Shown here one piece after another: positions 9,616 through 49,900 of a stretch of DNA of 64,000 nt. The stretch lies in assembly GCF_009914755.1 (NCBI RefSeq), contig NC_060929.1; one strand, 5' to 3'. The notes under the pieces are model-generated. The model worked only from the letters and a program-made list of their open reading frames with translations, was not told where the DNA came from and ran no database searches. This DNA comes from the human T2T-CHM13v2.0 reference genome, Homo sapiens. Position numbers and translations under genes: made by a program. Within the stretch, counting starts at the first letter, position 1. Every line of letters begins with the position of its first letter.

Positions 9616-10609
9616 GTGGGGCTCCCAACCACAGGATTTGCCATACCCTAACCACAGAGGTGGGTATGAGACTGAGGTAGGTCAAATAGACTTTCCCTCC
9701 TGAGAATTCAACCTTGGTTGAGACACAGAGGGATGAGAAAGGGTAGCTGAACCACTGTAATAACACCAAGATCTCCAGAACTGCACTATGTCTGGCTCTC
9801 CCATGGCCCATGGTCCATCTTCCTTTGATTTTATAAGATATCTCAGTGCTCCTGGTGTTTATTTCACTATTATGCTTCATAACACATGTGTACACTACAT
9901 ATATCCTTCAATAATACATAAATCAATATTTCATAATCAACATTAAAGAATAAAAGAGCCAAAACAAGAGAATTTTAAAATATCTGCTCTCAGATAGTGG
10001 GGATAGGACTTGCTACAGACTCGAATGAAAGGAAAGAATTATGTGCTAATTCTGCTAAGGAAAATGGAAACCATTAAAATGCCTTAAAAGAACTAAAGAA
10101 ATGAAAACTCTAACCAGGTAAGAAAGGGAGTTAGTGGGATCTCAGTGAGGTTGAAGGCTCCACACCTCTTACACTTAACTAAAACATTGAACCCTATGGA
10201 CATGGGCTGCTGGATCATCTCATTGAAGGATGTGGTCTAGGAGACCCAATAGTTTCTTTATAGGCAACCATTAAAAAGACCAGCATGTCTATTTCATCCA
10301 CAGGAAGACCCGAGCATCCAAGGCATGAATCACACAACAAATTCTCTTCAAGAAAAGCAACGAGGTTCCAAGATGGCTGAATAGGAACAGCTCCAGTCTA
10401 TAGCTCCCAGTGTGAGTGATGCAGAAGATGGGTGATTTCTGCATTTCCAACAGAGGTACCAGGTTCATCTCACTGGAGCTTGTCAGACAGTGGGTGCAGT
10501 CCACAGAGTGTGAGCCGAAGCAGGGGCATCGCCTCACCTAGGAAGCACAAGGGGTCAGGGAATTCCCTTTCCTAGCCAAGGGAAGCCGTGACAGACGGTA
10601 CCTGGAAAA

Positions 10610-10792
10610 TCAGGACACTCCCACCCTAATACTGCGCTTTTCCAATGGTATTAGCAAATGGCACACCAGGAGATTATATCCCACACATGGCTCTGAGGGT
10701 CCCATGCCCATGAAGCCTCGCTCAGGGCTAGCACAGCAGTCTGAGATCAAACTGCAAGGTGGCAGCAAGGCTGGGGGAGGGGCGTCCACCAT
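10610..10792 (-). other. L1 antisense ORF0 homolog (60 aa, C-terminally shortened)
   Basis: MVDAPPPALLPPCSLISDCCAS...GPSEP...EKRSIRVGVS matches primate L1 ORF0p; ATG retained. Confidence 0.8.
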
Positions 10793-11366
10793 TGCTGAGG
10801 CTTCAGTAAGTAAACAAAATGCCCGGGAAGCTCGAACCGGGTGGAGCCCACCGCAGCTCAAGGAGGCCTGCCTGCCTCTGTAGACTCCACCTCTGGGGGC
10901 AGGGCATAGCCAAACAAAAGGCAGCAGAAACCTCTGCAGACTTAAATGTCCCTGTCCGACAGCTTTGAAGAGAGCAGTGGTTCTCCCAGCATGGAGTTTG
11001 AGATCTGAGAATGGACAGACTGCCTCCTCAAGTGGGTAACTGACCGAAAAACAGCCTAACTGGGAGGCACCTCCCAGTAGGGGCCAACTGACACCTCATA
11101 CGGCCGGGTGCCCCTCTGAGATGAAGCTTCCAGAGGAAGGATCAGGCACCAACATTTGCCATTCTGCAATATTTGTTATTTTGCAGCCTTAGCTGGTGAT
11201 ACCCAGGCAAACAGGGTCTGGAGTGGACCTCCAGCAAACTCCAACAGACCTGCAGCTGAGGGGCCTGACTGTCAGAAGGAAAACTAACAAACAGAAAGGA
11301 CATCCACACCAAAATCCCATCTATACGTCACCATCATCAAAGACCAAAGGTAGATAAAACCACAAA

Positions 11367-12390
11367 GCTGGGGAGAAACCAGAGCAGAAAAGCTGAAAAT
11401 TCTAAAAATCAGAGCGCCTCTTCTCCTAGAAAGGAACGCAACTCCTTGCCAGCAATGGAACAAAGCTAGATGGAGAATGACTTTCACGAGTTGAGAGAAG
11501 AAGGATTCAGACGATTAGTAATAAGAAACTTCTCTGACCTACATGAGGATGTTCGAACCAATCACAAAGAAGATAAAAACCTTGAAAAAAGATTAGATGA
11601 ATGGCTAACTAGAATAAACAGCATAGAGAAGACCTTAAATGACCTGATGGAGCTGAAAACCACAGCACAAGAACTACGTGATGCATGCACAAGCTTCAGC
11701 CGCCGATTAGATCAAGTGGAAGAAAGGGTATCAGTAACTGAAGATCAAATGAATGAAAAGAAGCGAGAAGAGAAGTTTAGAGAAAAAGGACTAAAAAGAA
11801 ATGAACAAAGCCTCCAAGAAATATGGGACTATATGAAAAGACCAAATCTACATCTGATTGATGTACCTGAAAATGACAGGGAGAATGGAACCAATGTGGA
11901 AAACATTCTGCAGGATATTATCCAGGAGAACTTCCCCAACCTAGCAAAGCAGGCCAACATTCAAATTCAGGAAATACAGAGAATGCCACAAAGATACTCC
12001 TCGAGAAGAGAAACTCCAAGACACATAATTGTCAGATTTACCAAGGTTGAAATGGAGGAAAAAATGTTAAGGGAAGCCAGAGAGAAAGGCTGGGTTACCC
12101 ACAAAGGGAAGCCCATCAAACTAACAGCAGATCTCTCTGAAGAAACTCTACAAGCCAGAAGAGAATGGGGGCCAATATTCAACATTCTTAAAGAAAAGAA
12201 TTTTCAACCCAGAATTTCATATCCAGCCAAACTAAGCTTCATAGTGAAGGAGAAATAAAATCCTTTACAGACAAGCAAATGCTGAGAGATTTTGTCAGCA
12301 CCAGGCCTGCCTTACAAGAGCTCCTGAAGGAAGCACTAAACATGGAAAGGAACAACTGGTACAAGCCACTGCAAAAAGATGCCATTGTAA
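11367..12390 (+). pseudogene. L1-a ORF1p remnant (start ATG changed to CTG, stop and frameshift)
   Basis: ORF 11470..12258 has ENFPNLA, TPRHIIVRF and REWGPIF motifs. Confidence 0.95.
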
Positions 12391-12453
12391 AGACCATCGA
12401 TGCTAGGAAGAAACTGCATCAACGAACGAGCAAAATAACCAGCTAACATCATA

Positions 12454-16261
<3,808 letters not shown>

Positions 16262-17129
16262 ACAATGAGAACACTTGGACAAAGGATGGGGAACGTCACA
16301 CATCAGGGCCTGTTGTGGGGTGGGGGGAGGGGGAAGGGATAGCATTAGGAAATATATCTAATGTAAATGACAAGTTAATGAGTGCAGCACAGCAACATGG
16401 CACATGTATACATATGTAACAAACCTGCACGTTGTGTACATGTACACTAGAACTTAAAGTATAATTTTTTTTAAAAAAAAAAGAAAGGAAAAGCAACATC
16501 TTTCTGCTTAGGATGAGAGCCTAATATACTTGGAATGATAAAACTTCTTTTTCAGTGAGTATCATTTTACCCTTGGAACCTTCCAAGGTTTCAAGGTATT
16601 TTAACACGCAAGTATTTTAAGTATTTTAAGGTAGATTACACACATCTTAACACCTACCCTATAACACTTGAGCACACACAGTGTGATGCCTTAATATGTT
16701 AGTTTAAGTTATAAACTAGGCACAGCCAGTGGCCTGATGGAGACTCCCTAGCCAGTCAGCAGGTCACCAGCAAATCCACACACCAGAGAGGGCTACAGTA
16801 AGAGCGTGAGCCAGGCACATCTTCATCAACATCAAAGGCTTTTCTAACTGACCTAGTGAAGACCAGTGGTTTCTGTTGGTGGAATTAATGGTATTCAAGT
16901 TGTATGATAGAGTAAGATATTTCAGTAAATATCCCCACACTTCATGAACAGCACAAGCATCCCAGGAAATGATGCCACTCAACATTTAATGTCCCAAGAG
17001 TCCCAGGTCCCCCACCAAGTCAGGAGCAGTCTGGACTGCAGATACCATCATATCTACCTTAGATGAACCTGCCACGCAATCGGTCAGACTACGCACAAGA
17101 CAGAGAACATACAAAAAATGACCAGTATA

Positions 17130-20289: not shown

Positions 20290-23029
20290 CCCAGCAAGGG
20301 TTCTTAAACAAGCTGAAGTGGCTGAAATGACAGAAATAGAATTCAGAATATGGATAAGAATGAAGATCTTTGAGATTCAGGAGAATGTCAAGACTCAATC
20401 CAAGGAAGTTAAGAATCACAATAAAATATTACAGGAGCTCATAGACAAAATAACCATTATAAAAAAGAAGCAAACTAATCTAGTAGAGCTGAAAAATATA
20501 CTATAAGAATTGCATAATGCAATCACAAGTATTAACAACAGAACAGACTAAGCTGGGGAAAGAATCTCAGAGTTTGAAGACTGGCTGTCTCAAATAACTC
20601 AATGAGACAAAAATAAAGAAAAAAGAATGAACAACACCTCTGAGAAATACAGAATTATGTAAAGAAACCAAATCGATGATTCACTGGCATCCTCAAAAGA
20701 GATGAGGAGAAGGCAGGCAATTTGGAAAACATATTTCAGGATAGCATTTATTAAAACTTCACTACAGAGGCCAACATTCAAATTCAGGAAATGCAGAGAA
20801 CCCCTGTGAGGTTATACAAGAAGAGCATCCAGAAGATACATAATCAGATTCCACAGGCTGAAATGAAAGAAGAATCATTAAGGGTAACTAGAGACAAGGG
20901 ACAGGTAACCTACAAAGGGAATCCCATCAAGCTAAGAGTGGACCTTTCAGCAGAAATGCTGCAAGCCAGAAGAGACTGGGGGTCTATATTCAGGATTCTT
21001 AAAGAAAAAATGTTTAACCAATAATTTCATTTCCAGTCAAACTAAGCTCCGTAAGTGAAGGAGAAATAAGATTCTTTTCAGACAAGAAAATGCTGAGGGA
21101 ATTTGTTACCACCAGACCTGCCTTACAAGAAATCCTGAAAGGAGCAATAAATATGTAAAGGAAAGACCATTACCAGCCCCTACAAAAACACACTTAAGTA
21201 CATAGACAGGTGACACTAAAAAGCCACCACACAAATAAGTCTGCATAATAACCAGCCAACAACACAAACACATGATCAAATCCACAAAAATCAATATTAA
21301 TCTTGAAAGTAAATGGGCTAAATGCCCCAATTAAAAGGCACAGAGTGGCAAGCTAGATAAAAAAGCAGGGCCTAATGGTATACTGTCTTCAAGAGACCCA
21401 TCTCACATGCAATGACATCCATAGCCTCAAAATAAAGGGATGGAGAAAACATATCAAGAAAATGGAAAACAGAAGAAAGCAGGGGTTGCAGTCCTAATTT
21501 CAGAGAAAACAGACTTTAAACCAACAAAGATCAAAAGAGATAAAAAGGGGATTATATAGTGGTAATGGGTTCAATTCAACAAGAAGATCTAACTGTTTTA
21601 AACATACACACAACTAACACAACAACACCCAGATTCATAAGGCAAGTTTTTAGAAATCTATGAAGAGACTTATATTACCACACAGTAATAGTAGGTGACT
21701 TCAACACCTCAATGACAGTATAAGACAGATCACTGAGACAGAAAGTTATTTGGGACCTGAACTCAACACTTGACCAAATGGACCTAACAGACATCTAAAG
21801 AACTCTCCACCGAAACACAATAGAATATACATTCTTCTCAACACCACATGGCACACACTCCAAACTCGACCACACCATCAGACATAAAACAATACTCAGT
21901 AAATTTTTTAAAAAATGAAATCATACCCAACCACACTCTCAGACCACAGCACAATAAAAATAGAAATCAATAGTAAGAAAATTACTCAAAAGCATACAAT
22001 GTGGGGGGCGGTTCCAAGATGGCTGAATAGGAACAGCTGCAGTCTATAGCTCCCAGTGTGAGCGACGCAGAAGACGAACGATTTCTGCATTTCCAATTGA
22101 GATACCAGGTTCATCTCACTCGGGATTGTCGGACAGTGGGTGCACAACAGTGGGTGCAGCACACCGAGCGTGAGCCGAAGCAGGGTGAGGCAGTGCCTCA
22201 CCCAGGAAGCGCAAGGGGTCAGGGAATTCCCTTTCCTAGCCAAGGAAAGGGGTGACAGACAGCACCTGGAAAATCAGGTCACTCCCACCCTAATACTGTG
22301 CTTTTCCAACGGTCAGCAAATAGCACACCAGGAGATTATATCCTGTGCCTGGCTCAGAGGGTCCTATGCTCACGGAGCCTCACTCATTGCTAGCACAGCA
22401 GTCTGAGATCAAACTGCAAGGGGGCAGCGAGGCTGGGGGAGAGACGCCCACCACTGCTGAGGCTTGAGTAGGTAAACAAAGCGGCCAAGAAGATCAAACT
22501 GGGTGGAGCCCACCACAGCTCAAGGAGGCCTGCCTGCCTCTGTAGACTCCACCTCTGGGGGCAGGGCATAGCCAAACGAAATGCAGCAGAAATCTCTGCA
22601 GACTTAAATGTCTCTGTCTGACAGCTTTGAAGACAGTAGTGGTTCTCCCAGCACGCAGCTTGAGATCTGAGAACAGACAGACTGCCTCCTCAAGTGGGTC
22701 CCTGACCCCCGAGTAGCCTAACTGGGAGGCACCCCCCAGTAGGAGCAGACTGACACCTCACATGGCCGGCTACCCCTCTGAGATGAAACTTCCAGAGGAA
22801 TGATCAGGCAGCAACATTTGCTGTTCACCAATATTCCCTACTCTGCAGCCTCTGCTGCTGATACCCAGGCAAGCAGCGTCTGGAGTGGACCTCCAGCAAA
22901 CTCCAACAGAACTGCAGCTGAGGGTCCTGACTGTTAGAAGGAAAACTAACAAACAGAAAGGACATCCACACCAAAACCCCATCTGTACGTCACCATCATC
23001 AAAAACCAAAGGTAGATAAAACCACAAAG

Positions 23030-24036
23030 ATGGGGAAAAAACAGATCAGAAAAACTGAAAATTCTAAAAATCAAAGCACCTCTCCTCCTCCAAAGGAATG
23101 AAGCTCCTCACCAGCAATGGAACAAAGCTGGATGGAGAATGACTTTGACGAGTTGGGAGAAGGCTTCAGACGATCAAACTTCTCTGAGCTAAAGGAGGAA
23201 TTTCGAAGCCATGGCAAACAAGTTAAAAACCTTGAAAAAAGATTAGATGAATGGCTAACTAGAATAACCAATGCAGAGAAGTCCTTAAAGGACCTGATGG
23301 AGCCGAAAACCACAGCACAAGAACTATGTGATGAATGCACAAGCTTCAGTAGCTGATTCGATCAACTGGAAGAAAGGGTATCAGTGACGGAAGATCAAAT
23401 GAATGAAATGAAGCAAGAAGTTAAGTTTAGAGAAAAAAGAATAAAAAGAAATGAACAAAGCCTCCAAGAAATATGGGACTATGTGAAAAGACCAAATCTA
23501 GGTCTAATTGGTATACTGAAAGTGACGAGGAGAATGGAACCAAGTTGGAAAACACTCTGCAGGATGTTATCCAGGAGAACTTCCCCAACCTAGCAAGGCA
23601 GGCCAACATTCAAATTCAGGAAATACAGAGAATGCCACAAAGATACTCCTCGAGAAGAGAAACTCCAAGACACATAATTGTCAGAATCACCAAAGTTGAA
23701 ATGAAGGAAAAAATGTTAAGGGCAGCCAGAGAGAAAGGTCGGGTTAGCCACAAAGGGAAGCCCATCAGACTAACAGCTTATCTCTCTGAAGAAACTCTAA
23801 GGCCAGAAGAGAGTGGGGGCCAATATTCAACATTCTTAAAGAAAAGAATTCTCAACCCAGAATTTCATATCCAGCCAAACTAAGCTTCATAAGTGAAGAA
23901 GTAAAATACTTTACAGACAAGCAAATGCTGAGAGATTTTGTCAGCACCAGGCCTGCCTTACAAGAGCTCCTGAAGGAAGCACTAAACATGGAAAGGAACA
24001 ACTGGTACAAGCCACAGCAAAAACGCCAAATTGTAA
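23030..24036 (+). pseudogene. L1-b ORF1p remnant
   Basis: atggggaaaaaacag start; fragments 23117..23356 and 23473..23883 with stops and frameshifts. Confidence 0.95.
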
Positions 24037-24099
24037 AGACCATTGATGCTAGGAAGAAACTACATCAACGAATGAGCAAAATAACCAGCTAACATCATA

Positions 24100-27920
<3,821 letters not shown>

Positions 27921-30554
27921 ACAATGAGAACACATGGACACAGGAAGGGGAACATCACACAGCGGGGCCTGTTGTGGGGTGGGGGGAGGGGGGAGGGATA
28001 GCATTAGGAGATATACCTAATGTAAATGACGAGTTAATGGGTGCAGCACACCAATATGGCACATGTATACATATGTAACAAACCTGCACGTTGTGCACAT
28101 GTATTCTAAAACTTAAAGTATAATAAAAAATAAAAATAAAAAAATAAAAAATAAAAAAAAGCATACAATGACATGGAAATTAAGCAACCTGCCCCTGAAT
28201 GACTTTTAAGTAAATAATAAAATTAAAGAAGAAATCAAGAAATTCTTTGAAACTAATGAGGACAAAGATAAAACATACCAGAATCTCTGGGACATAACTA
28301 AAGCAGTGTCAAGAGGAAAGTTTATAGCACTAAAAGCCCACATCAAAAAGTTAGAAAGATCTCAAATTAACAATCTAACATCAGAACTAGAAGAACTAGA
28401 GGAGCAAGAGCAAGCTCACCCCAAAACTAACAGAAAACAGGAAACAACCAAAATCAGAGCTGAACTGAAGAAGATTGAGAAGCAAAAAAAAAAAAACGTA
28501 TTAAAAAAAGAGATTAATGAATTTAAGAGTTGGTTCTTTGAAAAAATAAGACAGAGAAACCACGAGCTAGACTAAAAAATTTTTTAAAAGATTCAAATAA
28601 ACACAATTAGAAATGACAAAAGGGACATTACCACTGACCTCACAGAAATACAAAAAAAAAATCAGGGACTACTATGAATATATGCAGACAAACTAGAAAA
28701 TCTAGAAGAAACAGATAAATTCCTGGACACATACAACTTCCCAAAGCTGAACCAGGAAGAAATTGAATCCCTGAACAGACCAATAACAAGTTCTGAAATT
28801 GAATCTGTAATAAAAGCGTACTAACCAAGAAAAGCCCAGAACCAGTTGGATTCACAGTAGATTTCTACTAGATGTATAAGGAAGAGCTAGTACCATTCCT
28901 ACTGAAACTATTCCAAAAAAAATTGAGGAGGGGGAACTCCTCCCTAACTCACTCTATGAGGCCAGAATGGCAGAAACACAACAAAAAAAGAAAGCTTCAG
29001 GCCAATTTCCTTGATGAACACAGATGCAAAAATCTTCAACAAAATACTAGCAAACCAAATCCAGTAGCACATCAAAAAGGTAATCGACAACGATCTAGTA
29101 GCCTTTTTCCCTGGGATACATGGTTGATTCAACATATGCAAATCAATAAATGTGATTCATCACATAAACAGAACTAAAAATAAAAACTGTGATTATCTCA
29201 GAAAAGACTTTCAGTAAAATTTAACATCCATTCATGTTATAAGCTCTTAACAAACTAGGCATCAAAGGAACACACTTCAATATAATAAGAGTCATCTATG
29301 AGTAAGCCACAGCCAACATACTGAGTGGGCAGGAAACATTCTCCTTGAGAACCAGAACGAGACAAGGATACCCTCTCTTACCACTCCTATTCAATACAGT
29401 ATTGGAAGTGCTGGCCAGAGCAATCAGGCAAGAGAAAGAAAAGGCATCCAGAGAGAAAGAGAGTATGTCAAAGTATCCCTGCTTACAGAAAACATGATTC
29501 TATCTCTAGAAAACCCCATAGTTTCTGCCCATAATCTCCTTGATCTGATAAACAACTTCAGCAAAGTTTCCGGATACAAACTTAATGTACAAAAATCAGT
29601 AGCATTCCTATACACCAAGATCCAAACCAAGAGCCAAATCACAAATGAAACTGCATTCACAATTGCCACAAAAAATAAAATACCTAGGAATACACCTAAC
29701 CAGGCAGGTGAAAGGCCTCTACAACAAGAATTACAAAACACTGCTCAAAGAAATCAGCAAAAACACAAGCAAATGGAAAAACATTACATACTTATGGACA
29801 GGAAGAATCAATATCACTAAAATGGCCATTGTGCCCAAGACAATTTACAGATTCAATGCTATTTCTATCAAATGACTGATGACATTCTTCACAGAACTAG
29901 AAAAACTATTAATATTTTAAAATTCATATAGAACAAAAAAAGCCCAAATAGCAAAGGCAATCCTAAGCAAAAATAAGAAAACTGGAGGCATCATGTTACC
30001 CAACTTCAAAGTATACTACAGGGTACTGGTAACCAAACAGCATGGTACTTGTACAAAAATAGACACATAGACCAAAGGAAGTGAACAGAGAACCCAGAAA
30101 TAATGCTGCACACCTATGACCATCTGATCTTCGACAAACCTTACAAAAATAAGCAATAGAGAAAGCATTTCCCATTTAATAAATGGTACTGGGATAAATG
30201 GCTAGGTATATATGCAGAGATTGAAACTGGACCTCTTTCTTTTGCATCCAAAAAATAACAAATGTATACTTTAATTTCTAAAATAGGTGTCTTGACATGT
30301 GCACAACTGTATTTTCCTAGTGCAAACTTTCCCATCGATTATTATAATTTTTAAAAATTATACTTTAAGTACTAGGGTACATGTGCACAATGTGCAGGTT
30401 ACATAGATGTATGTTTCATGTTGGTGTGCTGCACCCATCAACTCGTCATTTACATTAGGTATTTATCCTAATGCTATCCCTCCCCCAGCCACACACCCCA
30501 CAACAGGCCCCAGTGTGTGATGTTCCCCGCCCTGTGTCCATGTGTTCTCATTGT

Positions 30555-33500
30555 TCAGCTCCCACTTATGAGTGAGAACATGTGGTGTTTGGTTTTCTGT
30601 CCTTGTGATAGTTTGCTGAGAATGATGGTTTGCAGCTTCATCCATGTCTCTGCAAAGGACATGAACTCATCCTTTTTTATGGCTGCATAGTATTCTGTGG
30701 TGTATATGTGCCACATTTTCTTAATCCAGTCTATCATTGATCAGCATGTGGGTTGGTTCCAAGTCTTTCCTATTGTGAAGAGTGCTGCAATAAACATACG
30801 TGTGTCTTTATAACAGCATGATTTATAATCCTTTGGGTATATACCCAGTAATGGAATGGCCAGGTCAAATGGTATTTCTAGTTCTAGATCCTTGAGGAAT
30901 CGCCACACTGTCTTCCACATCAGTTGAACTAATTTACACTCCCACCAACAGTGTAAAACTATTCCTATTTCTCCACATCCTCTCCAGCACCTATTGTTTC
31001 CTGACTTTTTAATGATCGCCATTCTAACTGGTGTGAGATGGTATCTCATTGTGGTTTTGATTTGCATTTCTCTGATGACCAGTGATGATGAGCATTTTTT
31101 CATATGTCTGTGGGCTGCATAAACGTTTTCTTTTCAGAAGTGTCCATTCATATCCTTTGCCCATTTTTTGATGGGGTTGTTTTTCTCTTGTAAATTTGAG
31201 TTCTTTGTAGATTCTGGATATTAGCCCTTTGTCAGATGGATAGGTTGCAAAAATTTTCTCCTATTCTGTAGGTTGCCTGTTCACTCTGATGGTAGTTTCT
31301 TTTGCTGTGGAGAAGCTGTTTAGTTTAATTAGATCCCACTTGTCAATTTTGGCTTTTGTTGCCATTGCTTTTGGTGTTTTAGTCATGAAGTCTTTGCCCA
31401 TGCCTATGTCCTGAATGGTATTGCCTAGGTTTTCTTCCAGGGTTTTTCTGGTTTTAAGTCTTACATTTAAGTCTTTAACCTATCTTGACTTAATTTTCAT
31501 ATAAGCTGTAAGGAAGGGATCCAGTTTCAGCTTTCTACATGTGGCTAGCCAGTTTTCCCAGCACCATTTATTAAATAGGGAATCCTTTCCCCAGTGCTTG
31601 TTTTTGTCAGGTTTTTCAAAGATCAGATGGCTGTAGATGTGTGGTGGTTATTTCTGAGGCCTCTGTTCTGTTCCATTGGTCTATATCTCTGTTTTGGTAC
31701 CAGTACCATGCTGTTTTTGTTACTGTAGCCTTGTAGTATAGTTTGAAGTCAGATAGTGTGATGCCCTGGCTTTGTTCTTTTTGCATAGGATTGTCTTGGC
31801 TATGTGGGCTCTTTTTTGGTTCCATATGAACTTTAAAATAGATTTTTCCAATTCTGTGAACAAAGTCATTGGTAGCTTGATAGGGATGACATTGAATCTA
31901 TAAATTACCTTGGGCAGTATGGCCATTTTCATGATACTGATTCTTCCCATCCAGGAGCATGGAATGTTCTTCAATTTGTTTGTGTCCCCTTTTATTTCAT
32001 AGAGCAGTGGTTTGTAGTTCTCCTTCAAAAGGTCCTTCACATCCCTTATAAGATGGATTCCTAGGTATTTTATTCTTTTTGTAGTAATTGTGAATGCGAG
32101 TTCACTCACGATTTGGCTCTCTGTTTGTCTGTTATTGGTGTATAAGAATGCTTGTGATTTTTGCACATTGATTTTGTATCCTGAGACTTTGCTCAAGTTG
32201 CTTATTAGCTTAAGGAGATTTGGGGCTGAGACGATGGGGTTTTCTAAATATACAATCATGTTATCTGCAAACGGAGACAATTTGATTTCCTTTTTTCCTA
32301 ACTGAGTACACTTTCTTTCTTTCTCTTGCCTGACTGCCCTGGCCAGAACTTCCAACGCTATGTTGAATAGGAGTGGTGAGAGAGGACATCCTTGCCTTGT
32401 GTCAGTTTTCAAAGGGAATGCTTCCGGTTTTTGCCCATTCGGTATGGTACTGGCTGTGGGTTTGTCATAATAGCTCTTATTATTTTGAGATATGTTGCAT
32501 CAATACCTAGTTTATTGGCAGTTTTTAGTATGAAGGGCTGTTGAATTTTGTAGAAGGCCTTTTCTGCATCTATTGAGATAATCATGTGGTTTTTTTCCTT
32601 GGTTCTGCCTATGTGATGGATTACATTTATTGATTTGTGTATGTTGAACCAGCCTTGCATCCCAGGGATGAAGCCAACTTGATCATGGTGGATAAGCTTT
32701 TTGATGTGCTGCTGGATTCCTTTTGCCAGTATTTTATTGAGCATTTTTGCATTGATGTTCATCATGGATAATGGCCTAAAATTCTCTTTTTTGTTGTGTT
32801 TCTGCCAGGCTTTGGTATCAGGATGATGCTGGCCTCATAAAATGAGTTAGGAAGGATTCTCTCTTTTTCTGTTGTTTGGAATAGTTTCAGAAAGAATGGT
32901 ACCAGCTTCTCTTTGTACCTCTGGTAGATTTCGGCTGTGAATCCATCTGGTCCTGGAATTTTTTTTATTTGTAGGCTATTAATTATTGCCTCAATTTCAG
33001 AACCTGTTATTGTTCTATTCAGAGATTCAACTTCTTCCTGGTTTAGTCTTGGGAGGGTATATGTGTGCAGGAATTTATCCATTTCTTCTAGATTTTCTAG
33101 TTTATTTGCAAAGAAATGTTTATAGTATTCTCTGACGGCAGTTTGTATTTCTGTGGGGTCAGTGGTGATATCCCCTTTATCATTTTTTATTGCATCTATT
33201 TGATTCTTCTCTCATTTCTTCTTTGTTAGTCTTGGTAGCAGTCTATCTATTTTGTTGATCTTTTCAAAAAACCAGATTCATTGATTTTTTTGAAGGGTTT
33301 TTCATGTCTCTTCAGTTCTGCTCTGATCTTAGTTAGTTCTTGCCTTCTGCTAGCTTTTGAATTTGTTTGCTCTTGCTTCTCTAGTTCCTTTAATTGTGAT
33401 GTTAGGGTGTCAATTTTAGATCTTTCCTGCTTTCTCTTGTGGGCATTTAGTGCTATAAATATCCCTCTACACACTGCTTTAAATGTGTCCCAGAGATTCT

Positions 33501-34353
33501 GGTATGTTGTGTCTTTGTTCTCACGGGTTTCAAAGAACATCTTTATTTCTGCCTTCATTTCATTATTTACCCAGTAGTCATTCAGGAGCAGGTTGTTCTG
33601 TTTGCATGTACTTGAACGGTTTTGAGTGAGTTTCTTAATCCTGGGTTCTAATTTGATTGCACTGTGGTCTGAGAGACAGTTTGTTGTGATTTCTGTTCTT
33701 TTGCATTTGCTGAGGAGTGCTTTACTTCTAACTATGTGGTCAATTTTAGAATAAGTGCGATGTGGTGCTGAGAAGAATGTATATTCTGTTGATTTGGGGT
33801 GGAGAGTTCTGTAGATGTTTATTAGGTCTGCTTGGTGCAGAGCTGAGTTCAAGTCCTGGATATCCTTGTTAACCTTCTGTCTTGTTGATCTGTCTAATAT
33901 TGACAGTGGGGTGTTAAAGTCTCCCATTATTATTGTGTGGGAGTCTAAGTCTCTTTGTAGGTCTCTAAGGACTTGCTTTATGAATCTGGGTGCTCCTGTA
34001 TTGGATACATATATATTTAGGATAGTTCACTCTTCTTGTTGAATTGATCCCTTTACCATAATGTAATGGCCTTCTTTGTCTCTTTTGATCTTTGTTGGTT
34101 TAAAGTCTGTTTTATCAGAGACTAGGATTGCAACCCCTGCTTTATTTGCTTTCCATTTGCTTGGTAGATCTTCCTCATTCCCTTTATTTTGAGCCTATGT
34201 GTGTCTTTGCACATGAGATGGGTCTCCGGAATACAGCACTCTGATGGGTCTTGACTCTTTATCCAATTTGCCAGTCTATGTCTTTTAATTGGGAGCATTT
34301 AGCCCATTTACATTTAAGGTTAATATTGTTATGTGTGAATTTGATCTTGTCAT
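30555..34353 (-). pseudogene. L1-c ORF2p remnant
   Basis: GDFN, SDH and RQGCPLSP motifs; catalytic FADD changed to FADN; frameshifts. Confidence 0.95.
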
Positions 34354-34416
34354 TATGATGTTAGCTGGTTATTTTGCCCATTAATTGATCCAGTTTCTTC
34401 ATAGTGTCAATGGTCT

Positions 34417-35438
34417 TCACAATTTGGTATGTTTTTGCAGTGTCTGGTACTGGTTGTTCATTTCCACGTTTAGTGCTTCCTTCAGGAGCTCTTGTAAGGC
34501 AGGTCTGGTGCTGACAAAATCTCTCAGTATTTGCTTGTCTGTAAAGTATTTTACTTCTTCACTTATGAAGCTTAGTTTGGCTGGATATGAAATTCTGGGT
34601 TGAAAATTCTTTCTTTAAGAATGTTGAATATTGGCCCCCACTCTCTTCTGGCTTGTAGAGTTTCTTCAGAGAGATCTGCTGTTAGTCTGATGGGCTTCCC
34701 TTTGTGGGTAACCCGACCTTTCTCTCTGGCTGCCCTTAACATTTTTTCCTTCATTTCAACCTTGGTGAATCTGACAATTGTGTGCCTTCAGGTTGCTCTA
34801 CTCAAGAAATATCTTTCTGGTGTTCTCTGTATTTCCTAAATTTGAATGTTGGCTTGTCTTGCTAGGTTGGGGAATTTCTCCTGGATAATACCCTGAAGAG
34901 TGTTTTCTAATTTGGATCCATTCTCCCCATCACTTTCAGGAAGACCAATCAAACATAGATTTGGTCTTTTCATATAGTACCATATTTCTTGGAGGCTTTG
35001 TTCATTTCTTTTCACTCCTTTTTCTCTAATCTTGTCTTGTCACTTTATTTCATTAATTTGATCTTCAATTACTGATATCCTTTCTTCTACTTGATCGAGT
35101 CAGCTACTGAAGCTTGTGCATGCGTCACGAAGTTCTTGTGCTGTGGTTTTCAGCTCCAGCAGGTCATTTAAGGTCTTCTCCACATTGTTTATTCTAGTTA
35201 GCCATTTGTCTAACCTTTTTTCAAGGTTTTTAACTTCCTTGCTATAGGTTGGAACATGATCCTTTAGCTTGGAGAAGTTTGTTATTACCAACCTTCTGAA
35301 GCCTACTTCTGTCAACTCATCAATCTCATTCTCTATCCAGTTTTGTTCCTTTGCTGGCCAGTAGCTGTGATCCTTTGGAGGAGAAGAGGCACTCTGGCTT
35401 TTGGAATTTTCAGCTTTTCTGCTCTGGTTTCTCCCCAT
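34417..35438 (-). pseudogene. L1-c ORF1p remnant
   Basis: MGRNQSRKAENSK start, in-frame stops, REWGPIF motif. Confidence 0.95.
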
Positions 35439-36042
35439 CTTTGTGGTTTCATCTACCTTTGGTCTTTGATGATGGTGACCTACAGATGGGGTTTTGGTGT
35501 AGATGTGCTTTTTGTTGACGCTGATGCTATTCCTTTCTGTTTGTTAGTTTTCCTTCTAACAGTCGGGCCTCTCAGCTGCAGGTCTGTTGGAGTTAGCTGG
35601 AGGTCCACTCCAGACCCTGTTTGCCTGGGTGTCACCAGCAGAGGATGCAGAACAGCAAATATTTCTGCCTGGTCCTTCCTCTGGAAGCTTCATCCCAGAG
35701 GGGCACCTGCCTGTATGAGGTGTCTGTCAGCCCCTACTGGGAGGTGTCTCCCAGTCAGGCTACATGGGGGTCAGGGATCTACTTGAGGAGGCAGTCTGTC
35801 CATTCTCAGAGCTCAAATCCCATGCTGGGAGAACCACTGCTCTCTTCAGAGCTGTCAGACAGGGACGTTTAGGTCTGCCGAAGCTGTCTGCTGCCTTTTG
35901 TTCTGATATGCCCTGCCCACAGAGATGGAGTCTACAGCAAGGCAGTAGGTCTTGCTGAGCTGTGGTGGGCTCCACCCAGTTTGAGCTTCCTGGCCTCTTT
36001 GTTTACACTGTGAGCACAAAACCGCCTACTCAAGCCTCAGCA

Positions 36043-36183
36043 ATGGTGGATGCCCCTCCCCCCGCCAAGCAGCAGCATTGCAGGTTGATGTCATACTGCT
36101 GCGCTAGCAGTGAGCAAGGCACCGTGGGGCTGGGACCCACCGAGCCAGGCACAGGAGGGAATTTCCTGGTCTGCCGGTTGTGA
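36043..36183 (+). other. L1-c antisense ORF0 homolog (46 aa, truncated)
   Basis: MVDAPPPAK...CCAS...GPTEPG resembles ORF0p. Confidence 0.65.
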
Positions 36184-37729
36184 AGACTGTGGGAAAAGCA
36201 TAGTATTTGGACAGGAGTGTACCATTCCTCCAGGTACAGACTGTCACAGCTTCCCTTGGCTAGGAAAGGGTAATACCCTGACCCCTTGCACTTCCTGGGT
36301 GAGGTGACACACTGCCCTGCTTCAGCTCGCCCTCCATGGGCTGCACCCACTGTCCAACCAGTCCCAATGAGATGAACCAGGTACCTCAGTTGGAAATGCA
36401 GAAATCACCCTTCTTCTGTGTTGATCTCGCTGGGAACTGCAGACCAGAGCTGTTGCTATATGGCCATCTTGGAACTCTGAAATGGACCTCTTTCTTACAC
36501 CACATACAAAAATAAACTCAAGATGGATTAAAGACTTAAATGTAAAACCTAAAACTATAAAAACCCAGGAAGATAACCTAGGAAATACCATTCTGAATAT
36601 AGGACTTGGCAAAGATTTCATGACAAAGATGCTGAAAGAAATTATAACAAAAACAAAAATTGATGAATGGGTTCTAATTAACCTAAAGAGATTCTTCACT
36701 GCAAAAGAAACTATGAATTGAGTAAAGAAACAACCTATAGAATGGGAGAAAATGTTTGCAAACTATGCAAACAGGTGATGGCATCTTAGACTCAACAAAA
36801 TACACAAGCATGTGTAAATCCATTTTAATCCACAACCTGGGAGTAGGGAGTTAATATTGTACATGCCTCAATCAAGAATCTACCCTCTTGGAGCAATTCC
36901 TTAGTATTTGAAAGATCCTTTCAGAAGTCGACAACCTAGAACTATTCAACCAAGAGCTATTCAACTATTACACTCTGAATCAGAGAGTTTGTTTTGCTAG
37001 AAATAATTTTTTGTTAGTAAAATGAATGGTTTCAAGGTATCTGAATTGGCTAGAAATATTTTCCAGGCACCTGTGCTCAGGCATGGCCAGGGCACAAAAG
37101 TCTCACTAGCAGTCTAACACCAGGCCTATGATGACATTAAGTCTTTGGATTCCACAGAATTGCTAAGAATTCTGCTGCGTGCTTTAACTTTCAAAGAGGC
37201 TACGGACAGAGAGTGGAAACTTCGCTGGGCTCCCAAGACAGGTTTTCTGCTTCCTTATTAAACAAAGCTTTTTGGCAATGAGGTGGGCAGAATTCATTCT
37301 AAGACTTGCTTTCTTTGTCAACACTTGGTAATAAGGTGATGGAGGATGAGAAGGAAAGCCCTCACCTACCTCTGCTCTTGGGAGGCAATCTATATCTCCC
37401 AAAATCACTGGACAAGTGTGAAGGCCAAACTGACCCATCTGCAGCTGGAAGCCTGCCCAGTTCCTGACCTCCGGTCACCACCGTCACCAAAGTCACTTCT
37501 ATTAGCCACCCAGGGTACAACTGATTCAAGAACTGTAACTCAAGTCATGAACCTCTGCAATCATGAAAACCTCTCTTCTTCGCACAAATATATGAATAAA
37601 ATGACATTGGCACAAGTTCAGCTTGTAGAAATTCATTTAATGTTGCCTCAGGTAATTAGTTTATTTGGTCTGTCAAAGTGACCCAAAGCTTATCCATTTG
37701 GAGTCTCTGTTATGAACAGACATATAGTA

Positions 37730-43912: not shown

Positions 43913-46900
43913 TAGACTATTATTTACTATAGTCACCCTGTTGTGCCATCAAATAGTAGGTCTTATTCATTCTTTCCAACTTTTTTTTACACATCCCACC
44001 TCACCTCACCCCCATTCCCCAACTAACCTTCCCAGCCTCTGGCAAACATCCTTCTACTCTCTATGTCCATGAGTTTAATTGCTTTGATATTTAGGTCCCA
44101 TAAATAATTGAGAACATGTGATGTTTGTCTTTCTATGCCTGGCTTATTTCACTTAACATAACGATCTCTGGTTCCATCCATATTGTTGCAAATGACTGAA
44201 TCTCATTCTTTTTTATGGCTGAATAGTACTCCATTGTGTATATGTAACAAATTTTCTTTATTCATTCATCTGTTGATGGACACTTACGTTGCTTCCAAAT
44301 CTTAGCTATTGTGAACAGTCCTGCAATAAACATAGGAGTGCAGATGTATCTTTGATATACTGATTTCCTCTCCTTTGGATATAAACCCAGCAGTGGGATT
44401 GCTGGGGCCATATGGTAGCTTTATTTTAGTTTTTTGAGGAACCTCCAAACTGTTCTCCATAATAGTTGTACTAATTAATATTCCCACCAACAGTGTACAA
44501 GGATTCCCTTTTTCCACATCCTCATCAATATTTATTGTCTTTTGAACATGAACCATTTTAACTGGGATGAGATGATATCTCATTGTAACTTTGGTTTGCA
44601 TTTCTCTGATGATCAATGACGTTGAGCACCTTTTCATATGCCCGTTTTCCATTTGTATGTCTTATTTTGAAAAATGTCTATTCAAATCTTTTGCCCATTT
44701 TTTTGATCAGATTGTTAGGTTTTTTTTCTTACAGAGTTGTTTGAGCGCCATATATATTCTGGTTATTAATACCTTGTCAGAAGTGGGGGTAGTTTGCAAA
44801 TATTTTCTCCCATTCTCTGGGTTTTCTCTTCACTTTGTTGATTGTTTATTTTGCTGTGCAGAAGCTTTTTAACTTAATGTGATCCCATTTGTCCATGTTT
44901 GCTTTAGTTGCCTGTGCTTGTAGGGTATTACTCAAAAAATTTTTACCCAGAGTGGTATCCTGGAGATTTTCCCCAGTGTTTTTTTGTAGTAGTTTTATAG
45001 GCTGATGTCTTGGATTTAAGTTTTTAATCCACTTTGATTTTTGTATATGGCAAGAGATGGAGTCTAGTTTCATTCTTCTGTATGTGGATATCTAGTTTTC
45101 CCAGGACCATTTATTTAAGAGACTGTCTTTCTCTAGTGTATGTTCTTATATAACGGTTGTCGACAATGAGTTCACTGCACATGTGTGCATTTATTTCTGG
45201 GTTCTCTACTCTGTTCCATTGGTCTATGTGTCTGTGTTTATGCCAATGCCATGCTGTTTTGGCTACTATAGCTCTGTAGTATAATGTGAGGTCAGATAAT
45301 GTGATTCTTCCGGTTTTGTTCTTTTTGCTTAGGATAGCTTTGGTGATTCTGGGTCTTTTATGGTTCCATATAAATTTTAAAATTTTTATTTGTGTGAATA
45401 ATGTCATTGATATTTTGATAGGGATTGCATTAAATCTGTAAATTGCTTTGGGGAATATGGACATTTTAACAATATTGATTTTTCCAATCCATGAACATGT
45501 AATATTTTTCCATTTTTGGGTATTCTCTTCAATTTCTTTCAAAAGTATTTTATAGTTTTTATTACAGAGGTTTTTTTACTTCTGTGGTTAATTCCTAGGT
45601 ATTTAATTATGTTTGTGGCTATTGTAAATGAGATTACTTTTTTGTTTCTTTTTCAGATTATTCACTATTGGCACATAGAAATGCTACTGACTTTTTTTTG
45701 TATGTTGATTTTGTATCCTGCAACTTTGCTGAATTTGTTTATCAGTTCTAATAGTTTTTTGGTGGAGTCCTTAGTTTCTTCCAAATATAAGATTATATCA
45801 CCTGCAAACAAGGATAATTTGACTTCTTCCTTTCCAATTTAGATGCCGTCTATTTCTTTCTCTTGTCTGATTGCTCTAGCTAGGACTTCTAGTACTACGT
45901 TGAATAACACTGGTGGAAATGGGCTTCCTTGTTGTGTACTAGATCTTAGAGGAAAGGCTTTCAGTTTTTCCTCATTCAGTATGATACTAACTGTCGGGTT
46001 GTTGTATATGGCCTTTGGTTATGTTGAGGTATGTTCCTTCTATACCCAGGTTTCTGAGTGTTTTTTACATGAAGAGATGTTGAATTTTACCAAATGCTTT
46101 TTCAGCATTAATTAAAATGATCATTTGTTTTTTGTCCTACATTCTATTGATATAATGTATCATGTTGATTTATTTCCATATGTTGAACCATCCTTGCATC
46201 CCAGGAACAAATCCTACTTGGTCATGATGAATGATCTTTTTAATGTGTTGTTGAATTTGGTTTGCTAGCATTTTGTTGAGGATTTCTGCATCAAAATTTA
46301 TCAGAGATATTGACCTGTACTTTTCTTTTCTTGATTTGTCTTGTTTGAGCATCAGGGTAATACTGGCCTTGTAGAATTAGTTTGAAAGTATTCCCTCCGC
46401 CTCTATTTTTTGGAAAACTTTGAGCAGGATTGGTATTAGTTCTTTAAATGTTTGGTAGAATTAAGCAGGGAAGCCCTGGGGTCCTGGGCTTTTCTTTACT
46501 GGGAGACATTTTATTCTGACTGCAGTCTCATGACTTGTTATTGAACTGTTCAGGTTTTGGATTTCTTCCTGGTTCAATCTTGGTAGATTGTATATATCTA
46601 GGAATTTGTCCATTTCTTCTAGATTTTCAAATTTATTGGCATATAGCTGCTCATAGTAGCCACTAATGATCCTTTGAATTTCTCTGGTATCAGTCATAAT
46701 GTCTCCTTTTTCATCTCTGATTTACTTCAATCTTTTTTCTTAGTCCAGCTAAAAGTTTGTCAATTTTAACTTTTCAAAAATCCAACTTTTTGTTTCACTG
46801 ATGTTTTGTATTGTTTTCTTCATTTTAAATTAATTTTATTTCTGCTCTGATCTTTATTATTTCTTCTACTAATTTTGGGTTTCGTTTCCTCTTGCTTTTC

Positions 46901-49900
46901 TAGTTCTTCCAGATGCATCCTTAGGTTATCTATCTGAAGTTTTTCTTCTTTTTTGATGTAGGCACTTATACTATGAACTTTCCTGTTAGTACCACTTTTG
47001 CCATATCCACATGTTCTGTTAGTCGTTGGATGAAATGTTCTGTAAATATTAATTAGATCCATTTGATCTATAATGCAGAGTAAGTCTGATGTTTCCTTAT
47101 TGATTTTCTGTCTGGAAGATTTGTCAAATGCTGAAACTGGGGTGTTACAGTCTCCAGCTGTTATTGCATTGGGGGTCATCTCTTTATCTCTAATAATATT
47201 TTCTTTAAATATCTGGGTTCTCCCATGTTAGGTGCATATATGTTTAAAATTGTTATATCCTCTTGTTGAGTTGACCGCTTTATCATCCTATAGTGACCCT
47301 CTTTGTCTCTTCTTATGGTTTTTTGTCTTGAAACTTATTTTTTCTGATACAAGTATAGGTACTCCTGCTTTTTGATTTCCATTGACATTGAATATCTTTC
47401 TATCCCTTTATTTTTAGTCTGTCTTTATACATGAAGTGCATTTCTTGTAGACAACAAATCAAATGGGCTTGTTTTATCCATTTGGCCTTTGTATGTCTTT
47501 TTGGTTGGAGAGATTAGTTCATTTACATTCAGTGTTATTATTGATAAGTAAGGAGTTACTCTTGTTATTTTGTTATTTGTTTTCTGGTTGTTTTGTGGTC
47601 TTCTCTTCCTTTTTTTTCCTCCATCTTCCTTTTAGTGAAGGTGATTTTCTCTGATGGTATGATTTAGTTTCTTGCTTTTTATTTTTTGTGTATCCATTGT
47701 ATTTTTTTTTTTTTTTTTTTTGGTTTGTGATTACCATGAGGCTTGCAAATTCTATCTAAAAACCCATTGTTTTAAGCTGATAACAACACTGTTGGCATAA
47801 ACAAAAAGAAAACCAATAAAAGCTCTACACCTTAATTTTCTTCCCCTGCTTTTTAATTTTCTGTTGTTTCTATTTATATCTTATTGTACTGTCTGTCTTG
47901 AAAAGTTGTAGTTATTTTTGGTTGGTTCATCATTTAGTCTTTCTACTTGGGATAAGAGTAGTTTACACAACACAGTTACAGTGTTATAATATTCTGTGTC
48001 TTTCTGTGTATTTACTATTAGCAGTGAGTTGTGTGCCTTCATTCGGTGATTACTTACTGCTCATTAACATCCTTTTCTTGCCGACTGAAGTACTCCCTTT
48101 AGCACTTCTTGTAGGACAGATGAAACCCCTCAGCTTTTGCATGGAAAAGTATTTCTTTCTCCTTCATGTTTGAAGGATATTTTCACTGGACATACTATTC
48201 TAGGGTAAAAGGTTTTTTCCTTCTTCAGCACTTTAAATACTTCATGTCACTCTCTCCTGGCCTGTAAAAAGTCAGATGCTGGAAGTACTGGACCTCCACT
48301 GTATGCTATTTCTTTCTTTTTTTAATGCTGCTTTTAGGATCGTTTCTTTATCCTTGACCTTTGAGAATTTGATTATTAAATGCCTTGAGGTAGTCTTCTT
48401 TGGGTTAAGTCTGCTTAGTGTTCTATGACACCAAACCTTAGGTATCTAGGTTTGGGAAGTTCTCTGTTATTATTATTTTTTAAGACACTTTCTACCCCTA
48501 TCTCTTTCTCTACTCCTTCTTTAGGACCAATAACTCTTAGATTTGCCCTTTTGAAGCTATTTTCTAGATCCTGTAGGTGTGCTTTATATTTTTTTCCTTT
48601 TGTCTCTTCTGTGTATTTTCAAATAGTTCACTGTTTGCAAATAATAGAATTAGTCTTTAAGCTCACTGATTCTTTCTTCTGCTTAGTCAATTCTGCTATT
48701 AAAGGACTCTGATATATTCTTCAACATGTCAACTGCATTTTTCAGCTCCAGAATTTCTGCTTGATTCTTTTTAATTATTTCAATCTCTTTGGTAAATGTA
48801 TCTGATAATTTCTAAATTTCTTCTGTTATCTTGAATTTGAGTTTCCTCAAAACAGCTATTTTGAATTCTCTGTCTGAAAGGTCACATATCTTTGTTTCTC
48901 CAGGATTGTTCCCTGGTGATTTATTTAGTTTATTTGGTGAGGTCATGTTTTTCTGGGTTGCCTTGATACTTGATGTTCATCTGTGTCTGGGCATTAAAGA
49001 GTTAGGTATTAATTGTAATCGTCACAGTCTGGGCTTGTTTTCACCTGTCATTCTTGGTAAGACTTTTCAGATAGTCTAAAGGACTTGGGTGTTATGATCT
49101 AAGCTATATCTGCTTTAGGGGGTACCTCAAGCCCAGTAACACTGTGGTTCTTGCAGACCCATTGAGGTACCACCTTGATGGTCTTGAACAAGATCCGGTA
49201 GAATCTGCCTGGATTACCAGGCAAAGACTTGTTCTTTTCTCTTAGTTTCTCCCAAACAAACAGAGGCTTTCTCTCTGTTCTGAGCCACGTGAAGCTTGGC
49301 ATAGAGTGACACTAGCACCCCTGTGGCCACCACCATTAGGACTGCACTGAGTTTTGCCCAAGACCTGTAACCACTCCCTGGCTACTGCCTAGGTTCTGCC
49401 AAGGCCCTGGGGCTCTGCAATCAGCAGGTGCCAAAGTCACCCAGGCCTGTGTCCTTCTTTTCAGGATGGCAAGTTCCCCTCAAGCTCCAGACAGGTCCAG
49501 AGGGGCTATCCAGGAGCCAGGGACCAGAGTCAAAAACCTTAGAAATCTATCAAGCGTTCTATTGTGCTGCAGCTGAGCTGGCACTCAAACCACAAGATGC
49601 AGTCCTTCCTACTCTTTCCTCCTCTTTCCAAAAGCAGAGGAGCCTTGCCCCACTGTGGTGGCCATTGCCACCCCTGGCAACAAGGAGTACTGCCAGACTA
49701 CTGCCAATGTTCCCATAAGGCCCCAAGGCTCTTTAGTCAGCTCGTGGTGAATGCTGCCTAGCCTGGGACTCACCTTTCAGGGCACTGGGCTTCCCTCTGA
49801 CCCAGAGCAGGTCCAGAAATGCCATCCAATAGTCAAGTCCTAGAATCAGGGAGTCCAAGAGCCTGCTTGCTGCTCTAAGCACCTGTGGCTGAGCTGGTAC

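What the first reader, a model, noticed from the sequence alone, without database searches (positions are those of the whole stretch)
22002..36477. Inverted neighbours L1-b and L1-c share private mutations, including a frameshift: probable local gene conversion
Seen: L1-b (+) and L1-c (-) have different TSDs and clearly different 5' UTRs and 3' UTR diagnostics, so they are independent insertions. They nonetheless share (b / c positions): an ORF1 3-bp deletion gaagaagtaaaa (about 23898 / 34555), an ORF2 1-bp frameshift gctattatgac giving '[11 protein letters not shown]' (about 25995 / 32469), RTKEKNH (25867 / 32598), SELAFTI (26368 / 32097), GRISI, aagcactgggg (26871 / 31594), aaccagaaaa (27017 / 31448) and aacagcttctccacag (27147-27155 / 31310-31318). 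L1-a has the usual state at nearly all of these sites. Knowledge: L1 mobilises mainly in cis, so an RT-domain frameshift is unlikely to be inherited from a shared source element. Inference: repeated short-tract non-allelic conversion, perhaps helped by fold-back pairing of two 6-kb arms only 2.2 kb apart.
Basis: partly seen in the sequence, partly recalled or inferred. Interest (0 to 1): 0.8.

Follow-up and report, generated by a model that had tools for sequence, protein, structure and literature searches.

The report
Neighbouring L1 copies exchanged short patches
Three separately inserted, dead L1 retrotransposons lying within 26 kb on human chromosome 5 share mutations that are otherwise very rare in the genome, including a reading-frame break, which is best explained by short copy-and-paste repair between nearby repeats, a process already known from Alu elements.

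Summary
L1-b (22002-28156, +) and L1-c (30242-36480, -) have different target-site duplications and are separate insertions into one older L1.

In 1.47 kb of ORF2 (b 25850-27320) they share 12 alleles that are rare among unlinked copies. 323 of the 324 other pairs share 0-5; the exception is a probable segmental duplication.

Exact-word counts in the whole genome confirm rarity:
- The frameshift word occurs 12 times, against 3021 for the normal word.
- Four other b/c words occur 3, 5, 28 and 51 times. One normal counterpart occurs 4429 times.
- By my reading of the printed lists, no unlinked locus carries two of these words.

- The ORF1 "3-bp deletion" is the common state in the seven unlinked copies displayed. 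L1-a has the unusual extra bases.
- L1-a is also involved. It shares genome-rare alleles with b (words found 3 and 14 times) and with c (7 times).
- Fold-back pairing of the inverted arms is therefore not needed.
- The pattern is a mosaic of at least 7 short patches, not one tract.

Best reading: short-patch non-allelic gene conversion among neighbouring L1s. This is a known kind of process, so interest is moderate.

The parts
22002..28156 (+). L1-b, full-length L1PA-type element between its target-site duplications (21988-22001 and 28157-28170)
30242..36480 (-). L1-c, full-length older L1PA-type element between its target-site duplications (30226-30241 and 36481-36496). The L1-homologous part is 30339-36475. 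A further 97 bases (30242-30338) lie between the A-rich tail and the duplication.
10362..16487 (+). L1-a, full-length L1 with target-site duplication GAAAAGCAAC (10352-10361 and 16488-16497). It also shares rare alleles with b and c.
20605..21997 (+). First piece of the older host L1 (73% identical to b) into which b and c inserted. It continues at 28171-30241 and 36477-36765.
28171..30241 (+). Middle piece of the host L1, forming most of the 2.2-kb spacer between b and c. It is not the donor: it matches 2 of 17 shared rare sites.
25867..27155 (+). Stretch of L1-b ORF2 holding 12 rare alleles shared with c, plus the shared frameshift
31310..32598 (-). The matching stretch of L1-c ORF2
25991..26001 (+). 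1-bp deletion (TTT to TT) in the RT domain of L1-b
32464..32474 (-). The same 1-bp deletion in L1-c
26943..26962 (+). 20-base word with a C-to-G change shared by a (15275-15294), b and c (31503-31522). It occurs 56 times in the genome.
27746..27762 (+). 17-base word with two changes shared by b and a (16087-16103). It occurs 3 times in the genome.
31482..31498 (-). 17-base word with two changes shared by c and a (15299-15315). It occurs 7 times in the genome.

Best explanation
After three L1 elements had inserted independently within 26 kb, homologous repair between them (non-allelic gene conversion) copied short stretches from one copy into another. Each stretch was tens of bases to about 100-200 bases long. 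Mutations that arose privately in one dead copy, including a 1-bp frameshift in the reverse-transcriptase domain, thereby came to sit in a neighbour.

Shown: independent insertion; rarity of the shared alleles; their excess and clustering; the mosaic arrangement.

Inferred: the repair mechanism; its early timing, when the copies were more alike; and the direction. The direction looks like c to b in two patches, where b carries older-subfamily alleles. It is possibly b to c in one patch.
For: 1. Independent insertions with different TSDs, nested in one older L1.

2. In b 25850-27320, b and c share 12 alleles that are rare (at most 8%) among the other copies. 323 of the 324 other pairs share 0-5; the exception, L028/L030 with 21, has a common truncation point and looks like a segmental duplication. 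A crude chance expectation is 0.54, giving Poisson P about 7e-13.

3. Exact-word counts in the whole genome:
- Frameshift 25-mer: 12, against 3021 for the normal 26-mer.
- RTKEKNH word: 3, against 4429 for the normal word.
- Double-change 21-mer at b 27140: 5.
- SELAFTI word: 28.
- AAGCACTGGGG word: 51.

4. Reading the printed lists by eye, I found no unlinked locus in two lists. The four unlinked carriers of the two rarest words are 55-79% identical to b over the region. They hold 2, 3, 3 and 5 of the 12 substitution sites, and none has the deletion.

5. By my reading of the alignments, 8 of the 12 changes are transversions and none is a CpG transition. Parallel mutation would favour transitions.

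6. In a tree of the region, b sits in a younger clade (99% support) and c outside it. The two are not sisters, yet c's most identical sequence is b.

7. At 52 subfamily-diagnostic columns b is young-type at 49 and c old-type at 43. Two of b's three old-type alleles (24764, 26806) lie beside shared rare alleles.

8. L1-a shares rare alleles with b. The count is 15-17 over the whole length, against 2-7 for a paired with the seven unlinked full-length copies. Two were checked genome-wide (3 and 14 copies). L1-a also shares rare alleles with c (11-12; one word occurs 7 times).

9. Two younger-subfamily copies added later carry the common allele at nearly all these sites.

10. Print: gene conversion among Alus acts within about 10 kb and falls with distance. 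I saw this as passages in PMC8230782 and PMC6598467, both citing Aleshin and Zhi 2010, which I did not read.
Against: - No contiguous tract is visible. Shared rare alleles are interleaved with subfamily-diagnostic differences, so at least 7 separate patches in 1.3 kb, or one heteroduplex with patchy repair, must be assumed.
- Identical-run lengths do not single out the pair: b/c reaches 104 bases, unlinked pairs up to 137.
- Present identity (87.9% overall) is low for homologous repair, so early events must be assumed.
- The last 0.8 kb, where homologous sites are closest, has 0 shared rare alleles, though b has only 11 rare alleles there.
- The background pool is small: 20 chr1 copies chosen by one exact 26-mer, plus 10 deletion carriers, with two rearranged loci dropped. 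It lacks young subfamilies. Only 9 variant words were checked genome-wide.
- No outgroup species and no raw reads were available.
Confidence: 0.8

Rival explanations
1. b and c (and a) descend from one rare source lineage that already carried these variants, including the frameshift. That lineage would have been mobilised in trans or recombined before insertion.
For: - L1 lineages can be mosaic (recalled, not checked here).
- b and c share alleles over more than one region.
- One old unlinked element (L031) carries 5 of the 12 states.
Against: - Reading the printed lists for five b/c words by eye, I found no other locus with two of them.
- The unlinked carriers fetched are 55-79% identical to b.
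- b and c fall in different clades and differ at 41 of 52 diagnostic columns.
- The 5' UTR and ORF1 show little b/c sharing: 1 shared allele in 22030-23300.
Confidence: 0.05
2. A third L1, nearby or since lost, donated the same patches to both b and c. They would then resemble each other without direct exchange.
For: - Both copies sit inside an older L1 that covers the same ORF2 positions.
- That host matches the b/c allele at 2 of 17 sites.
Against: - The host and a second old L1 in the window (44096-46908) differ at most sites: the host at 15 of 17.
- L1-a has the common allele at 11 of the 12 sites.
- This is still gene conversion and only changes the donor.
Confidence: 0.07
3. Independent parallel mutation at the same sites in two neighbours, with no transfer.
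For: - The 1-bp deletion lies in a run of three T and recurs in unlinked copies of varied age (10 other exact matches).
- Unlinked pairs do share 0-5 rare alleles in the region.
Against: - The pair shares 12 rare alleles against a mean of 0.99 for other pairs.
- By my reading, 8 of the 12 are transversions and none is a CpG transition.
- Each checked word has a genome frequency of about 0.07-1%.
Confidence: 0.02
4. An assembly or polishing artefact in T2T-CHM13 moved bases between the inverted copies.
For: None from the calls.
Against: - The copies are only 88-92% identical, so long accurate reads should place uniquely (inference).
- The shared alleles are single bases flanked within 2-100 bases by many differences, which is unlike a collapsed or mis-polished stretch.
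- The same kind of sharing involves L1-a, 11.7 kb away.
Confidence: 0.04

Closest known systems
Non-allelic gene conversion between neighbouring Alu elements (Aleshin and Zhi 2010, as described in PMC8230782 and PMC6598467)
   Same: - Non-diagnostic (private) mutations are shared by separately inserted neighbouring copies.
- The effect is reported within about 10 kb. Here homologous b/c sites in the patch region are 4.2-6.7 kb apart and a/b sites 11.7 kb apart.
   Different: - The elements here are 6-kb L1s of different subfamilies, now only 88-92% identical.
- Several patches lie within one element pair.
- Three partners are involved.
- A coding frameshift is among the transferred changes.
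Interlocus gene conversion between segmental or gene duplicates (concerted evolution)
   Same: - Short tracts.
- Dependence on distance and identity (PMC6598467, passage seen).
- Conflict between the tree and the shared variants.
   Different: - The copies are not duplicates of one locus: TSDs differ and flanks are unrelated.
- Overall homogenisation is slight, and the copies remain in different clades.
Inverted segmental duplication or palindrome with arm-to-arm conversion
   Same: Two 6-kb inverted arms with a 2.2-kb spacer, sharing variants.
   Different: - The arms arose by two insertions, not by duplication.
- Identity is 88%, not near 100%.
- A direct-orientation neighbour takes part as well.

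Membership tests
LINE-1 (L1) retrotransposon copies | Reverse-transcriptase domain in ORF2 | tested here: met
   RVT_1 (PF00078) matches at E 7e-20 and 4e-19 on the two sides of the frameshift in b.
LINE-1 (L1) retrotransposon copies | Target-site duplications flanking a full-length element with an A-rich 3' end | tested here: met
   TSDs were found for a, b and c.
Non-allelic gene conversion between dispersed repeats | The copies arose independently, not by duplication of one locus | tested here: met
   TSDs differ, and the host L1 is continuous across each insertion point.
Non-allelic gene conversion between dispersed repeats | The copies share derived variants that are absent or rare in unlinked family members | tested here: met
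   The pair shares 12 rare alleles against 0-5 in 323 other pairs. Genome counts are 3-51 and 12, against 3021 and 4429 for normal words.
Non-allelic gene conversion between dispersed repeats | Local conflict with the family tree (mosaic structure) | tested here: met
   b and c lie in different clades in the region that holds the shared alleles. b carries old-type alleles at 24764 and 26806, next to shared rare alleles.
Non-allelic gene conversion between dispersed repeats | Statistically long identical fragments (GENECONV-type test) | tested here: inconclusive
   The longest b/c runs are 104, 84, 75 and 73 bases. Unlinked pairs reach 137. GENECONV itself was not run.
Non-allelic gene conversion between dispersed repeats | The pre-conversion state is seen at the orthologous locus in an outgroup species | not testable with these tools
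   No primate genomes other than this assembly were held.
Inverted segmental duplication | Homology extends beyond the repeat into the flanks, and the TSD is shared | tested here: not met
   b/c homology ends at the L1 ends. The TSDs differ.
Shared L1 sub-lineage (subfamily) | Other genomic members carry the same combination of variants | tested here: not met
   By eye, no unlinked locus appears in two of the five printed word lists. Four fetched carriers hold 2-5 of 12 sites on a much more diverged background. Exact-word searches miss mutated members.

The most novel reading that the evidence does not exclude
Short-patch, multi-partner exchange between diverged full-length L1s lying within tens of kilobases may be common across the human genome.

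Supporting hints:
- Of the 12 genomic carriers of the rare ORF2 frameshift word, 4 lie in two inverted neighbour pairs. These are b/c here and a pair 39 kb apart on chr8, which also shares 16 further rare alleles.
- Carriers of other rare words also sit in close pairs on chr4, chr5, chr6 and chr12. Those pairs might instead be segmental duplications.

If the process is general, 'private' mutations of old L1s are not independent. Divergence-based ages, subfamily calls and source tracing would then be biased near other L1s.
Probability: 0.4. Interest if true: 0.55.

Novelty: new member of a known kind. Interest (0 to 1): 0.4.

Why it matters
- It is a clean, checkable case in which inactivating and other private mutations of dead L1 copies moved between separately inserted neighbours of different subfamilies.
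- It shows that sequence divergence of an old L1 from its family is not purely a clock when another L1 lies within about 10-15 kb.
- It gives a simple recipe for a genome-wide test in complete assemblies: rare non-CpG alleles shared by neighbours, checked by exact-word counts.
- It has no evident gene-level consequence. No gene is annotated in the window.

Tried and rejected
- **Host L1 as donor.** Rejected: it matches 2 of 17 sites.
- **a/c 'private' 9-bp ORF1 insert.** This was an artefact of mafft --add --keeplength. The insert word occurs 1243 times genome-wide and is present in sampled copies. All counts in the report come from the re-made alignment (onward), except where searches are named.
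- **Whole-length shared-rare counts.** These do not single out b/c (18, against 16-18 for same-subfamily unlinked pairs), because the 5' half has few background copies. Region-wise tests were used instead.
- **Identical-run lengths.** No signal.
- **CpG flagging.** It marked almost nothing and was not relied on. CpG status of the 12 sites was read from the alignments.
- **chr6 neighbour pair (L035/L036).** Fetched to test generality. It proved to be two copies of one younger subfamily, so it is uninformative.
- **A larger random sample.** It could not be fetched.
- **Literature.** Searches turned up no paper on exchange between neighbouring L1s specifically. That is three full-text searches of the held library, not proof of absence. 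Work that I recall on L1 conversion was not seen here.
Full report
**What is there**

The window is human chr5:9920001-9984000 and has no annotated gene. It holds three full-length L1 elements:
- L1-a, 10364-16465, + strand.
- L1-b, 22010-28139, + strand.
- L1-c, 30339-36475, - strand.

Overall identities are a/b 90.9%, b/c 87.9% and a/c 87.0%.

Each element has its own target-site duplication:
- b: AAAAGCATACAATG at 21988-22001 and 28157-28170.
- a: GAAAAGCAAC at 10352-10361 and 16488-16497.
- c: a 16-base match with one mismatch (14 bases exact) at 30226-30241 and 36481-36496.

b and c are both nested in one older L1, which is 73-80% identical to b. Its pieces at 20605-21997, 28171-30241 and 36477-36765 continue across each insertion point.

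**Checking the observation**

The 1-bp deletion (TTT to TT) lies at b 25991-26001 and c 32464-32474. It gives [11 protein letters not shown] in both copies. It splits the Pfam RVT_1 match at profile position 106 of 205.

One item is wrong. The ORF1 '3-bp deletion' is the state of all seven unlinked copies displayed, and L1-a carries three extra bases. Only the adjacent G at b 23901 is rare.

**Is the sharing more than chance or subfamily?**

The assembly could be searched directly. Exact-word counts were:

| Word | Count |
|---|---|
| 25-mer with the deletion | 12 (b, c and 10 others) |
| Normal 26-mer at that site | 3021 |
| RTKEKNH word | 3 |
| Its normal form | 4429 |
| Double-change word at b 27140-27160 | 5 |
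| SELAFTI word | 28 |
| AAGCACTGGGG word | 51 |

Reading the printed lists by eye, I found no unlinked locus in two of these lists.

I fetched the 10 other deletion carriers and 20 copies from chr1 that carry the normal 26-mer and aligned them. Two rearranged loci, L005 and L006, were dropped from all counts.

In b 25850-27320, 26 copies are covered. There b and c share 12 alleles that are rare (at most 8%) among the rest. That is 12 of b's 34 rare alleles and 12 of c's 70. The 324 other pairs have a mean of 0.99. Their maximum is 5, apart from L028/L030 with 21. That pair has the same truncation point and looks like a segmental duplication.

By my reading of the alignments, eight of the twelve changes are transversions and none is a CpG transition.

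The four unlinked carriers of the two rarest words are old or partial elements, 55-79% identical to b over the region. They hold only 2-5 of the 12 sites.

**Shape of the sharing**

It is not one tract.
- A tree of the region puts b in a younger clade (99% support) and c outside it. Yet c's most identical sequence is b.
- At 52 columns that separate the younger from the older copies, b is young-type at 49 and c old-type at 43.
- Such diagnostic differences lie between the shared rare alleles. At least seven separate patches are therefore needed between b 25867 and 27155, each at most about 100-200 bases.
- Two of b's three old-type alleles (24764 and 26806) lie next to shared rare alleles, which suggests transfer from c to b there.
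- c is young-type at 27120, next to the shared pair 27147/27155, which hints at the opposite direction there. Direction is therefore not settled.
- Identical-run lengths do not distinguish b/c from unlinked pairs.

**L1-a takes part**

- All three copies share a C-to-G change in a word found 56 times in the genome.
- a and c share two further changes within 18 bases. That word occurs 7 times.
- a and b share 15-17 rare alleles over their length, against 2-7 for a paired with the seven unlinked full-length copies.
- Two a/b words were checked genome-wide and occur 3 and 14 times.
- In b 23300-25850 the a/b pair has 11 shared rare alleles. Relative to how many rare alleles each copy has, this is the highest of the pairs printed (my arithmetic on its top ten of 171 pairs).
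- Adding two copies of a younger subfamily did not change these counts materially.

Because a and b are in direct orientation, fold-back pairing of inverted arms is not required.

**Mechanism**

The best-supported reading is short-patch non-allelic gene conversion among neighbouring L1s.

The transfer itself is inferred from the pattern. So is its timing: probably early, when the copies were more alike than the present 88-92%.

Homologous b/c sites in the patch-rich stretch are 4.2-6.7 kb apart, and a/b sites are 11.7 kb apart. For Alu elements, conversion of non-diagnostic mutations among neighbours within about 10 kb is in print. I saw passages in PMC8230782 and PMC6598467, both citing Aleshin and Zhi 2010, which I did not read.

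Three full-text searches showed no paper on neighbouring L1s specifically.

**Rivals**

- **Shared source lineage.** Disfavoured by the absence of other carriers of the combination and by the clade difference.
- **Third donor.** Not excluded, but the host L1 matches only 2 of 17 sites.
- **Parallel mutation.** Very unlikely on the counts.
- **Assembly artefact.** Unlikely at this divergence, but untested, since no reads were available.

**Limits**

- The background sample is small.
- It was chosen by one exact word, so young subfamilies are missing from it.
- A larger sample could not be fetched.
- Only nine variant words were verified genome-wide.
- Exact-word searches miss mutated carriers.
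- No outgroup genomes were available.

**Verdict**

The gene-conversion reading is supported, the fold-back idea is not, and one listed variant is not private. This is a new instance of a known kind of process, so interest is moderate.

Noticed in passing
L007 (G000:C8:97158500-97165200, -) and L008 (G000:C8:97195800-97202500, +): A second inverted pair of full-length L1s, 39 kb apart and 89.4% identical. Both carry the same rare ORF2 1-bp deletion as b and c. They also share 16 alleles that are rare in the pool, spread over their length.
   Followed up: partly
G000:C4:191297370/191303464; C6:6011284/6085669/6164902; C6:87037696/87047370; C5:109367230/109395563; C12:33669134/33723899: Carriers of two rare L1 words (56 and 51 copies genome-wide) occur in close pairs or triplets far more often than random placement would give (my estimate, not computed in a call). 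They could be segmental duplications or local exchange.
   Followed up: partly
L035/L036 (G000:C6:87032500-87039100 and 87046000-87052500): Two full-length inverted L1s with non-homologous flanks, 92.8% identical. They share 86 alleles that are rare in my pool. This mainly reflects a shared younger subfamily absent from the pool, so the pair says nothing about conversion.
   Followed up: yes
G000:C5:10033470-10033492 (about 49 kb beyond the window end): Another L1 88.6 kb downstream of b carries the rare 23-base word shared by a and b (14 copies genome-wide).
   Followed up: no
L028/L030 (G000:C1:46753387-46759812 and 46962979-46969404): Two 5'-truncated L1 copies with the same truncation point. 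They share 21 rare alleles in 1.47 kb, which suggests a segmental duplication about 210 kb apart.
   Followed up: partly
window 30242-30338: L1-c has 97 extra bases between its A-rich tail and its target-site duplication. Part of this stretch resembles the end of an L1 3' UTR. It could be a 3' transduction or a tail rearrangement.
   Followed up: no
window 25490-26910: L1-b ORF2 is open for 176 codons before and 305 codons after the frameshift and keeps the FADD motif. L1-c has FADN at that place.
   Followed up: partly
window 11514-11524 and 35282-35292: a and c carry a 9-base ORF1 insert that b lacks. The word occurs 1243 times genome-wide, so it is a common family state. It looked private only because mafft --add --keeplength dropped it from the added copies.
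   Followed up: yes
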